Source: Escherichia coli
Lineage (GTDB): Bacteria; Pseudomonadota; Gammaproteobacteria; Enterobacterales; Enterobacteriaceae
Assembly: GCF_044324875.1 (NCBI RefSeq)
Contig: NZ_CP172185.1
Strand: one strand, 5' to 3'
Length of the DNA: 64,000 nt
Shown here: piece after piece, positions 7,570 through 8,092 of the stretch
How the letters are laid out: each line of letters opens with the position of its first letter
Position numbering within the stretch: the first letter of the stretch is position 1
The notes under the pieces: model-generated
The model's input: only the letters and a program-made list of their open reading frames with translations
Told to the model about the DNA's origin: nothing
Databases searched by the model: none
Translations under genes and position numbers: made by a program

Positions 7570-7580
7570 CCATCAACGAA

Positions 7581-7602
7581 AAAGCCCACATCTGTGGGCT
7601 TT
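7581..7602. terminator. Short hairpin (AGCCCACA / TGTGGGCT) in the ypjA-ssrA convergent intergenic region; possible bidirectional terminator
   Basis: Inverted repeat read directly; A-run on the plus-strand side upstream gives a T-run for the minus strand. Confidence 0.35.
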
Positions 7603-7729
7603 CATATCACCAGGAGCCGCGGCTCCTTTGCGTATCCTTTTATGTCTCCTCACCGTCTGGTCGGTGTCTTGCTGAGACTGCTAACTTCCTGTTTTTGTTG
7701 GTGTTGTCCTTGCACCGTCCAATCATGAT

Positions 7730-8092
7730 TGGTGGAGCTGGCGGGAGTTGAACCCGCGTCCGAAATTCCTACGTCCTCGGTACTACATGCTTAGTCAGTC
7801 TTTACATTCGCTTGCCAGCTGCGGACGGACACGCCACTAACAAACTAGCCTGATTAAGTTTTAACGCTTCAACCCCAGGCAGGGCTTCCACGCGATCTCT
7901 TTTGGGTTTGACCTCTCTTGATCCCCGTCCTAAGAGCGGAGGCTAGGGAGAGAGGGCTCTAAGCAGGTTATTAAGCTGCTAAAGCGTAGTTTTCGTCGTT
8001 TGCGACTATTTTTTGCGGCTTTTTACGAGGCCAACCGCCCCTCGGCATGCACCTTGGGTTTCGCAAATCCCGTCGAATCCAGAATCAGCCCC
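7730..8092 (-). ncRNA. ssrA: tmRNA (SsrA), 363 nt
   Basis: Reverse complement begins GGGGCTGATTCTGGATTCGACGGG and ends GGGTTCAACTCCCGCCAGCTCCACCA, and contains the tag-peptide reading frame region GCAAACGACGAAAACTACGCTTTAGCAGCTTAA. Confidence 0.95.

What the first reader, a model, noticed from the sequence alone, without database searches (positions are those of the whole stretch)
7570..8092. tmRNA 3' end sits only about 160 bp from ypjA: the ssrA integration site appears unoccupied
The 3' end of ssrA is a well-known integration site for prophage-like elements; in E. coli K-12 the CP4-57 element lies between ssrA and ypjA. Here the mature tmRNA 3' end (position 7730, minus strand) is separated from the ypjA stop (7569) by only about 160 nt, with no integrase, no prophage genes and no obvious duplicated copy of the ssrA 3' end. 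This locus is therefore either a naive attB or the product of a clean excision. That is relevant because CP4-57 excision has been linked to biofilm and motility phenotypes, and because the adjacent cargo (ypjA, orphan gene) is retained while the prophage is not.
Basis: partly seen in the sequence, partly recalled or inferred. Interest (0 to 1): 0.45.

Follow-up and report, generated by a model that had tools for sequence, protein, structure and literature searches.

The report
Empty ssrA phage site, old scars
This E. coli strain lacks the CP4-57 element that sits after the tmRNA gene in K-12, which is a common and already known state, and the DNA beside the empty site is itself leftover from older phage integrations.

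Summary
The tmRNA gene is at 7730-8092 (-), the ypjA stop codon ends at 7569, and the gap is 160 nt. There is no integrase and no recognisable second ssrA 3' copy in the 64 kb.

Both flanks are collinear with K-12. The window lacks the ~22-kb CP4-57 and keeps one copy of its 16-bp repeat (7729-7744).

The empty junction is ordinary. It occurs in 1,388 of 5,426 complete E. coli genomes (26%), against 672 with the K-12 ssrA-intA junction.

It is not a K-12-style excision product. That excision deletes T357 of ssrA, and T357 is present here (7736).

It is probably not naive either:
- The gap holds a conserved, structured trailer with a two-way terminator. The same sequence is the attP arm of ssrA-integrating phages (LLS, PhiNP, many viral contigs).
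- About 5.5 kb further, 2180-2236 is an orphan attP arm of P2-like ssrA phages.
- Beside that arm, K-12 and strain M1 keep a degenerate ssrA repeat, with a CP4-57-like right end in K-12. It is eroded in the window.
- A phage invertase fragment precedes ypjA.

So ypjA lies outside CP4-57, among remains of older ssrA-targeted elements. This is known biology of low interest. The trailer RNA is the only possibly new item.

The parts
7730..8092 (-). ssrA (tmRNA gene), complete. It differs from the K-12 mature sequence at one base (C320 instead of T320, window 7773).
   Evidence: ARAGORN; Rfam RF00023 at 292.8 bits, model positions 1-374; comparison with K-12
7736..7736 (-). T357 of ssrA, the U of the G3-U wobble pair in the acceptor stem. 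It is present here. K-12 after CP4-57 excision is reported to lack it.
   Evidence: position 357 = T; PMC10107115 read; the K-12 attR copy lacks this T
7729..7744 (.). Single copy of the 16-bp sequence TTGGTGGAGCTGGCGG. In K-12 it is repeated at both ends of CP4-57, so this is the attachment core for CP4-57-type elements.
   Evidence: The two K-12 alignments overlap at window 7729-7744; three-way alignment; unique in the window
7730..7754 (.). 25 bp identical to the attP/attB sequence of phage PhiNP, whose integration at ssrA was shown experimentally in K-12 derivatives. 7730-7758 is the 29-bp block identical to phage LLS.
   Evidence: PMC6456863; PMC12315714; alignment
7729..7772 (.). 44 bp that are 100% identical to the attP core of P2-like ssrA phages (SopEPhi, RE2010, ESSI-2, Cartapus, SEN8).
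   Evidence: rows H154-H164; Cartapus attP sequence
7579..7729 (-). ssrA 3' trailer, a conserved ~150-nt module. It is homologous to the attP arm of LLS/PhiNP-type phages. Four hairpins are supported by compensatory changes, and G-U pairs fit only the ssrA-sense strand. The helices are 7713-7716/7700-7703, 7674-7678/7644-7648, 7662-7666/7651-7655 and 7622-7626/7613-7617, plus the terminator.
   Evidence: LLS; 12 genomes of other genera, directly after an intact tmRNA gene; IMG/VR contigs; pair counts; no Rfam family
7581..7602 (.). Two-way intrinsic terminator hairpin (AAAGCCCAC-ATCT-GTGGGCTTT) shared by the convergent genes ypjA and ssrA. Homology to the phage arm starts here, at 7579.
   Evidence: Fold energies of -15.6 (ssrA sense) and -14.3 kcal/mol (ypjA sense), z -4.4 and -5.6; pair 159/167 is GC in 42 and AU in 14 sequences. 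The consensus terminator scan did not flag it.
2995..7569 (+). ypjA/ehaD autotransporter adhesin gene, intact, 1524 aa. It lies outside the CP4-57 boundaries, in the slot between an invertase fragment and the trailer.
   Evidence: ORF list; annotation of CE0007a; K-12 annotation and alignment
2424..2588 (+). Fragment of a serine DNA invertase (pinH-like). In the lambdoid Esc1 prophage a matching fragment lies between the tail-fibre assembly gene and the cargo/trailer/ssrA end, in the same orientation.
   Evidence: tblastn with LLS Fin: 55% identity over residues 40-94, E 1e-13; 84% DNA identity over 128 nt with L005 6746-6873; annotated as a partial recombinase
2180..2236 (-). Orphan attP arm of P2-like ssrA phages, which is an ssrA-sense terminator hairpin. 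In the phages it is followed by TTAT and then the ssrA 3' core.
   Evidence: megablast to Cartapus, 500465-1 and the Klebsiella Kp48xx phages; 54/57 identity with the break 4 nt before the core position; Cartapus annotation
2237..2264 (.). Eroded position of a fossil ssrA 3' repeat. K-12 and strain M1 carry a degenerate ~25-nt copy here. In K-12 it is preceded by a CP4-57-like right end.
   Evidence: rows H269, H270; alignment; K-12 coordinates L003 28607-28633; CP4-57 right end against the fossil flank scores 54, shuffles mean 17 and max 29; no significant copy in the window
8107..8136 (-). Sigma-70-like promoter just upstream of the ssrA 5' end.
   Evidence: Consensus scan, 9/12 with TG extension. 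This is a pattern match only.
8307..8789 (-). smpB, the conserved upstream neighbour of ssrA.
   Evidence: ORF list; annotation

Best explanation
The window comes from a natural E. coli strain, not a K-12 derivative. Its tmRNA gene has an intact, currently unoccupied attachment site.

The last 16-44 nt of ssrA carry the exact core sequences used by at least four kinds of element: CP4-57/P4-type islands, PhiNP, LLS-type lambdoid phages and P2-like phages. Nothing is inserted there now. Relative to K-12, the ~22-kb CP4-57 is simply absent, and ssrA keeps T357. So it is not the tmRNA-inactivating excision product known from K-12.

The neighbourhood is not pristine. In ssrA sense the order is:
1. 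ssrA
2. a 150-nt structured trailer ending in a terminator shared with ypjA
3. ypjA
4. a phage invertase fragment
5. a possible IS3 fragment
6. the eroded site of an older ssrA repeat
7. an orphan P2-type attP arm
8. ypjCB

Inference. The P2-type arm was once the sequence directly after ssrA. A CP4-57-like element then integrated and left its right end plus a repeat. A PhiNP/LLS-type phage integrated later and supplied the present trailer, and probably the last ~25 nt of ssrA. Deletions then removed almost everything except ypjA, the invertase fragment and the trailer. In K-12, CP4-57 is the latest arrival in this stack.

The trailer most likely terminates, and perhaps guides 3' processing of, pre-tmRNA. 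In the phage it lies downstream of int across attP.
For: Shown:
- Gene identities and spacing.
- Collinearity with K-12 on both sides at 93.6% and 98.2% identity. The only structural difference is the segment between the 16-bp repeats.
- No CP4-57 DNA and no IntA or LLS-Int homologue in the 64 kb.
- The empty junction is in 1,388 of 5,426 genomes. ypjA plus trailer is contiguous in 2,796. The K-12-type ssrA-intA junction is in 672.
- T357 is present, whereas excision in K-12 deletes it (PMC10107115; PMC3105296).
- The core sequences are identical to the PhiNP 25-bp, LLS 29-bp and P2-like 44-bp blocks.
- The trailer is homologous to the LLS attP arm at 90%. The homology starts at the terminator.
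- In IMG/VR, many contigs carry the trailer plus only a short ssrA 3' fragment. Nine of them have an LLS-type integrase just beyond the core.
- Its conserved 21-mer is patchy in genomes: only 21 species-representative genomes have it, and 12 of those have it directly after an intact tmRNA gene.
- The orphan P2-type arm breaks 4 nt before the core position.
- K-12 and M1 carry a fossil repeat, with a CP4-57-like right end in K-12.
- The invertase fragment is shared with a lambdoid prophage that sits at ssrA in the same orientation.
- A strain with identical YpjA and YpjCB proteins carries an island in the site, so occupancy changes within the lineage.

Inferred: the order of events, and that the trailer was phage-supplied.
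Against: - Site-specific excision with the crossover 3' of T357 would regenerate exactly this sequence. A past occupant cannot be excluded from sequence alone.
- The direction of transfer of the trailer is not proven. Phages could have copied a host sequence. The ypjA-linked E. coli allele is a distinct, apparently vertically inherited variant (2-nt deletion, A-T pair in the terminator stem).
- The fossil repeat is not detectable in the window itself. Its existence there rests on synteny with K-12 and M1.
- The IS3-like fragment is only a hint (E 0.1).
- No genome of the 5,426 shows the proposed earlier state of ypjCB-arm-ssrA joined directly.
- PHROG hits for YpjA and YpjCB are uninformative, because prophage predictions often include this region.
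- The census is not corrected for phylogeny and contains many laboratory K-12 derivatives.
Confidence: 0.8

Rival explanations
1. Recent precise excision. An ancestor of this strain carried a CP4-57-like (or other) element at ssrA, which was lost by integrase/excisionase-mediated recombination that restored attB.
For: - The site is dynamic. A strain with identical YpjA and YpjCB proteins has an island between ypjA and ssrA.
- About half of the genomes with ypjA plus trailer are occupied.
- CP4-57 excises at low frequency in K-12 (PMC3105296).
Against: - K-12-type excision deletes T357 and inactivates tmRNA. Such a product should be selected against, and it is not what is seen here.
- There is no scar of any kind.
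- The empty state occurs at many levels of flank divergence (96-100% identity). That fits retention better than repeated loss.
Confidence: 0.15
2. Truly naive ancestral locus. The arrangement ssrA-trailer-ypjA is the original chromosomal arrangement. The trailer is a native ssrA terminator that LLS/PhiNP-type phages copied into their attP. The more distal relics have nothing to do with ypjA.
For: - In E. coli the trailer is tightly linked to ypjA as a distinct allele.
- In K-12 it lies on the chromosomal side of the CP4-57 right repeat.
- Phage attP sites in tRNA-type genes are generally thought to derive from host sequence (general knowledge).
Against: - The trailer lies between ssrA and an older attR-type fossil with a CP4-57-like right end. 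So it must have arrived after that integration.
- Its conserved 21-mer is in only 21 species-representative genomes, yet is frequent in viral contigs.
- A phage invertase fragment lies on the far side of ypjA, in the same layout as a lambdoid prophage at ssrA.
Confidence: 0.25
3. Assembly artefact. A prophage was collapsed or dropped from the assembly at a repeat.
For: None specific. Repeats at att sites can break assemblies.
Against: - The same contiguous junction is present in 1,388 independently assembled complete genomes, some 100% identical.
- The repeat is only 16 bp.
Confidence: 0.01

Closest known systems
E. coli K-12 ssrA/CP4-57 locus and its delta-CP4-57 derivative (Wang et al. 2009, 2010; Onodera et al. 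2022)
   Same: Same genes and order on both sides (smpB, ssrA, then trailer, ypjA, pinH fragment, ypjC/ypjCB). Same 16-bp core. The window looks like K-12 with CP4-57 removed.
   Different: The flanks are only 93.6-98.2% identical to K-12, so this is an independent natural lineage. ssrA retains T357, whereas the K-12 excision product is delta-T357 and lacks tmRNA activity. The distal fossil repeat present in K-12 is eroded here.
Tandem or degenerate arrays of islands and prophages at tRNA/tmRNA genes (Williams 2003, 'Traffic at the tmRNA gene'; recalled from memory and cited within PMC10107115, not read here)
   Same: Several element remnants are stacked downstream of ssrA. Each is bounded by a partial ssrA 3' copy, with the newest next to the gene.
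   Different: In the window no integrase survives and the distal repeat is no longer recognisable. Only arms, a cargo gene and an invertase fragment remain.
attP regions of ssrA-integrating phages: PhiNP (Citrobacter rodentium), LLS (lambdoid), and P2-like phages such as Cartapus, SopEPhi and Fels-2 relatives
   Same: The identity blocks of 25, 29 and 44 bp are all present and intact in the window. The window also holds homologues of the arms that follow the core in these phages (7579-7729 and 2180-2236).
   Different: The two papers read here describe only the short identity blocks. They do not mention the ~150-nt homology of the LLS/PhiNP arm to the chromosomal sequence after ssrA.
Lambda sib/tI retroregulatory terminator (recalled from memory)
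   Same: In LLS a structured, terminator-ending element lies downstream of int on the far side of attP, transcribed in the same direction. Integration separates it from int. This is the geometry of sib.
   Different: No sequence similarity was tested or claimed. RNase III cleavage and an effect on int expression are untested. Here the element also ends up as the 3' trailer of a host RNA gene.

Membership tests
Unoccupied attB for CP4-57-type elements at ssrA | Complete tmRNA gene with a CCA end and a single copy of the core repeat | tested here: met
Unoccupied attB for CP4-57-type elements at ssrA | Flanks collinear with the left of attL and the right of attR of an occupied reference, with the alignments overlapping only at the core | tested here: met
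Unoccupied attB for CP4-57-type elements at ssrA | No integrase or element genes between the flanks | tested here: met
   160-nt gap; no IntA or LLS-Int homologue in the window
Unoccupied attB for CP4-57-type elements at ssrA | The site can actually receive an element | not testable with these tools
   Only sequence identity to the PhiNP, LLS and P2-like cores is shown.
K-12-type CP4-57 excision product | ssrA lacking T357 (tmRNA delta-U357) | tested here: not met
   T357 is present. The feature is defined in PMC10107115.
Degenerate island or prophage array at a tmRNA gene | A partial direct repeat of the ssrA 3' end at the distal boundary | tested here: inconclusive
   Not detectable in the window. 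Present at the orthologous position in K-12 and M1.
Degenerate island or prophage array at a tmRNA gene | Phage- or island-derived sequences between the repeats | tested here: met
   Invertase fragment; trailer homologous to a phage attP arm; CP4-57-like right end beside the fossil in K-12
Degenerate island or prophage array at a tmRNA gene | An integrase gene | tested here: not met
   None in the window with the two query integrases. It is presumed deleted.
Lambda sib/tI-like retroregulator (for the trailer) | Located downstream of int across attP, on the same strand, ending in a terminator | tested here: met
   LLS annotation and alignment; nine viral contigs with LLS-type Int beyond the core
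Lambda sib/tI-like retroregulator (for the trailer) | RNase III processing that destabilises int mRNA | not testable with these tools
   Needs experiments.
Any described RNA family (Rfam 15) for the trailer | A match at or near the gathering score | tested here: not met
   Only tmRNA reaches a meaningful score. The other matches are below 23 bits, far under their thresholds.

The most novel reading that the evidence does not exclude
The ~150 nt after ssrA (7579-7729) may be an undescribed structured RNA module: four hairpins ending in a terminator. It is carried in the attP arm of a large family of ssrA-integrating phages across Enterobacterales. It could do double duty. In the free phage it would sit downstream of int like lambda sib/tI and could control int expression. 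After integration it would become the 3' trailer and terminator of the host tmRNA precursor. On this reading the 'empty' E. coli site still wears the arm of a long-gone phage.
Probability: 0.25. Interest if true: 0.45.

Novelty: already known. Interest (0 to 1): 0.18.

Why it matters
For the finding as posed, it matters little. CP4-57 is a variable element, and an empty ssrA site is the more common state in E. coli.

Three practical points follow:
1. Absence of CP4-57 relative to K-12 should not be read as an excision event. K-12-type excision inactivates tmRNA (delta-T357), and this strain has a wild-type gene.
2. ypjA should be treated as part of an old island remnant, not as CP4-57 cargo.
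3. This strain's ssrA carries the exact core sequences used by PhiNP, LLS-type and P2-like phages, so it is a plausible recipient for them.

The conserved trailer shared by host and phage attP is a small lead. If followed, it could explain how ssrA-integrating phages keep the tmRNA gene properly terminated and how they regulate int.

Tried and rejected
- Apparent recurrent breakpoint at 7579. About half of E. coli genomes matched window 7300-7579 only. This turned out to be a paralogous autotransporter C-terminal pseudogene next to minE, not ypjA.
- RNAalifold on the trailer alignment gave an uninformative long-range consensus with no covariation. I replaced it with explicit helices and pair counting.
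- A sensitive search for a second ssrA 3' copy in the window found nothing above chance. This included a local alignment around 2237-2300.
- A synthetic 'ancestral' junction (ypjCB end + P2-type arm + TTAT + ssrA) is found whole in none of the 5,426 genomes. The same search exposed the M1-type fossil.
- PHROG and Pfam searches of YpjCB and YpjA gave only families of unknown function (phrog_30093, 21473, 30792; DUF5507/DUF5508). They do not help decide phage origin.
- The tblastx step returned nothing and may simply not have run. I do not rely on it. blastn and tblastn with two integrases carry the claim.
- The consensus terminator scan did not flag the 7581-7602 hairpin. Folding shows it clearly.
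- Wang et al. 2009 (PMC2754048) is not held. Its result is taken from two papers that cite it.
- The weak similarity of the ssrA 3' end to the ileY 3' end in K-12 (78% over 42 nt) was judged to be generic tRNA-likeness.

Full report
**What is there.** ARAGORN finds one tmRNA gene at 7730..8092 on the minus strand, with the E. coli tag ANDENYALAA. Rfam's tmRNA model matches it end to end at 292.8 bits. The long plus-strand ORF ending at 7569 is ypjA/ehaD. In E. coli strain CE0007a, which is 100% identical over the two junction queries (901 and 421 nt), the annotated order is ypjCB, a partial recombinase, ypjA, ssrA, smpB, with the same spacing. The gap 7570-7729 is 160 nt.

**Comparison with K-12.** In K-12, ssrA and ypjA are 22,190 nt apart, with intA through ypjF in between.
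- Window 7729-8300 aligns to the K-12 ssrA side and window 7300-7744 to the K-12 ypjA side. The two alignments overlap only at 7729-7744, TTGGTGGAGCTGGCGG.
- That 16-mer is the direct repeat flanking CP4-57. The copy at the ypjA side of K-12 lacks one T (CCGCCAGC-CCACCAA in ssrA sense).
- Over the compared stretch (window 1-28296) the window is collinear with K-12 at 93.6% (ypjA side) and 98.2% (ssrA side). No CP4-57 DNA is present. Neither IntA nor the LLS integrase has a homologue.
- The strain is therefore a natural isolate without CP4-57, not a K-12 derivative.
- ypjA lies outside the right repeat of CP4-57, so it is not cargo of that element.

**How unusual is it?** Not at all.
- A 421-nt query spanning ypjA end, gap and ssrA end is covered contiguously in 1,388 of 5,426 complete E. 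coli genomes, or 25.6%.
- ypjA end plus gap is contiguous in 2,796 genomes. So about half of the genomes that have this ypjA arrangement are empty at ssrA.
- The K-12-type ssrA-intA junction is found in only 672 genomes, many of them laboratory strains.
- A strain with the same YpjA and YpjCB protein sequences carries an island in the site. Occupancy therefore changes on short time scales.

**Naive or excised?** The literature gives a discriminator. CP4-57 excision in K-12 is reported to delete T357 of ssrA, the U of the acceptor-stem G-U pair. This inactivates trans-translation and switches ribosome rescue to ArfA (PMC10107115). It is summarised as a 'one base pair change' in PMC3105296. The missing T in the K-12 right-hand repeat fits this. 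The window's ssrA has T357 at window 7736. It differs from mature K-12 tmRNA only at position 320. So it is not the K-12-type excision product. A crossover 3' of T357 would leave no trace, so some earlier precise loss cannot be excluded from sequence alone.

**The site is a competent target.**
- Window 7730-7754 equals the 25-bp attP/attB of phage PhiNP, whose integration at ssrA was shown experimentally in K-12 derivatives (PMC6456863).
- Window 7730-7758 equals the 29-bp block of lambdoid phage LLS (PMC12315714; alignment).
- Window 7729-7772 is 100% identical to the attP core of P2-like phages such as SopEPhi, RE2010, ESSI-2 and Cartapus.

**The 160-nt gap is not anonymous spacer.**
- From 7579, ten bases after the ypjA stop, to the ssrA end, it is 90% identical to the DNA that follows the ssrA fragment in the attP region of phage LLS. 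It also matches PhiNP, the PhiR12 phages and Ayreon.
- In lambdoid prophages next to ssrA in strains AST81 and Esc1, this 'trailer' sits between ssrA and the phage's cargo and tail-fibre end.
- A circular dusA-integrating phage, annotated as a plasmid in strain CT01, carries a decayed copy.
- An exact conserved 21-mer from the trailer occurs in only 21 of about 100,000 species-representative genomes: Photorhabdus, Citrobacter, Lelliottia, Leclercia, Klebsiella indica, Enterobacter hormaechei, Mangrovibacter, Trabulsiella and others. In 12 of them it lies after an intact tmRNA gene, at the same ~93-nt distance where checked.
- The same 21-mer occurs in more than 120 IMG/VR viral contigs. Many of these have the trailer plus only 25-45 nt of ssrA in the contig interior, which is an attP configuration. 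Nine have an LLS-type integrase just beyond the core.

**Structure of the trailer.**
- It ends in a hairpin at 7581-7602 that folds well in both directions (-15.6 and -14.3 kcal/mol). It can therefore terminate both ypjA and ssrA.
- On 61 distinct trailers, five helices are 93.7% paired, against 39-52% when partners are slid. Eight pairs show compensatory changes, for example GC 24 / AU 23 at one pair. No shuffle of 500 reaches the observed covariation score (smaller set).
- Frequent G-U pairs fit only the ssrA-sense strand.
- The helices were derived from the window sequence, and the 21-mer is invariant by construction. I treat the RNA structure as likely, not proven.
- Rfam has no family for it.

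**Older scars further out.**
- Window 2180-2236, between ypjCB and the recombinase fragment, is 54/57 identical to the arm that precedes the ssrA core in the attP of P2-like phages (Cartapus, 500465-1, several Klebsiella phages). The homology stops 4 nt before the position where the core begins in the phage.
- In the window no ssrA-like sequence follows.
- In K-12 (L003 28607-28633) and in strain M1, the arm is followed by TTAT and a degenerate ~25-nt copy of the ssrA 3' end. M1 has the same empty ssrA-ypjA junction as the window.
- The 77 nt on the element side of the K-12 fossil align with the right end of CP4-57, with score 54 against a shuffle mean of 17 and maximum of 29.
- Window 2424-2588 encodes a fragment of a serine invertase that is 55% identical to LLS Fin (E 1e-13). 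Its DNA is 84% identical to the invertase fragment of the Esc1 prophage. There the order is tail-fibre assembly, invertase fragment, cargo, trailer, ssrA, in the same orientation as pin fragment, ypjA, trailer, ssrA here.
- A possible IS3 transposase fragment lies just before it (weak).

**Most likely history (inference).**
1. The P2-type arm once lay directly after ssrA.
2. A CP4-57-like element integrated and left its right end and a repeat.
3. A PhiNP/LLS-type phage integrated later and supplied the present trailer. Because the trailer lies between ssrA and the older fossil, it must be younger than that integration.
4. Deletions removed nearly everything except ypjA, the invertase fragment and the trailer.
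5. In K-12, CP4-57 then arrived on top.

Whether ypjA came with the phage or with the island cannot be decided. No genome shows the proposed earliest state. The alternative, that the trailer is native and phages copied it, keeps roughly a one-in-four chance.

**Verdict.** Variable occupancy of ssrA, and the consequences of CP4-57 excision, are documented in the papers read here. Tandem relics at tmRNA genes are, to my recollection, also known (Williams 2003, not read here). The finding is therefore ordinary and scores low. The one item that may be new is the conserved, structured trailer shared by the chromosome and the attP of a large phage family.

Noticed in passing
window 7300-7579: The last ~270 nt of ypjA plus 10 nt after its stop are 95-98% identical to an autotransporter C-terminal pseudogene next to minE, present in most E. 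coli genomes. This paralog inflates the 'places per genome' counts in searches with ypjA 3' sequence.
   Followed up: yes
L004 20004-20180 (E. coli CT01 'plasmid unnamed3', NZ_CP081794.1): A 43.7-kb circular phage genome, annotated as a plasmid, carries a dusA-type integrase with a dusA fragment. It also holds a decayed ssrA-type attP (trailer plus 28 nt of ssrA, 83% identity) next to the same restriction-modification cargo seen in the AST81 ssrA prophage. This looks like an exchange of the integration module.
   Followed up: partly
window 7773: The only difference from mature K-12 tmRNA is C320 in place of T320. It lies one base beyond the 44-bp block shared with P2-like phage attP. It could therefore mark which 3' end (host or phage-supplied) a lineage carries.
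   Followed up: no
window 2345-2420: A reading frame gives ...[20 protein letters not shown]..., weakly resembling an IS3-family transposase (NCBIfam E 0.1). If real, it suggests that IS-mediated deletion shaped the ypjA remnant.
   Followed up: partly
window 2237-2264 compared with K-12 L003 28607-28633: A ~25-nt patch differs almost completely between the window and K-12/M1, although the flanks are about 88-95% identical. The cause of this local replacement is unexplained. It is not a simple inversion by eye.
   Followed up: partly
L012 3459-4664, L024 2563-3768, L025 1590-2795: In Klebsiella indica, Pseudenterobacter timonensis and Enterobacter hormaechei, the gene right after the trailer terminator is a conserved 401-aa protein (MSLRFRQTFTLFPGV...). 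In K. indica a P4-like integrase follows it. This may be another recurrent tenant of the site.
   Followed up: no
L022, L023, L029: Records labelled Lachnospiraceae MAG, Chryseobacterium sp. and Collinsella MAG carry enterobacterial ssrA-trailer sequence at 86-99% identity to the window, and L029 also carries the ypjA 3' end. These are probably contamination or mis-binning in the public records.
   Followed up: no
L007 46560-46594 (E. coli AST81): A tandem array sits at ssrA. An LLS-oriented lambdoid prophage with a restriction-modification system is followed by three small genes, a 35-nt ssrA repeat and a second, P4-like integrase. This is a living example of the stacking inferred for the window.
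   Followed up: partly
window 34150-34225: tRNA-Glu (UUC), probably the spacer tRNA of an rRNA operon. It is unrelated to the finding.
   Followed up: no
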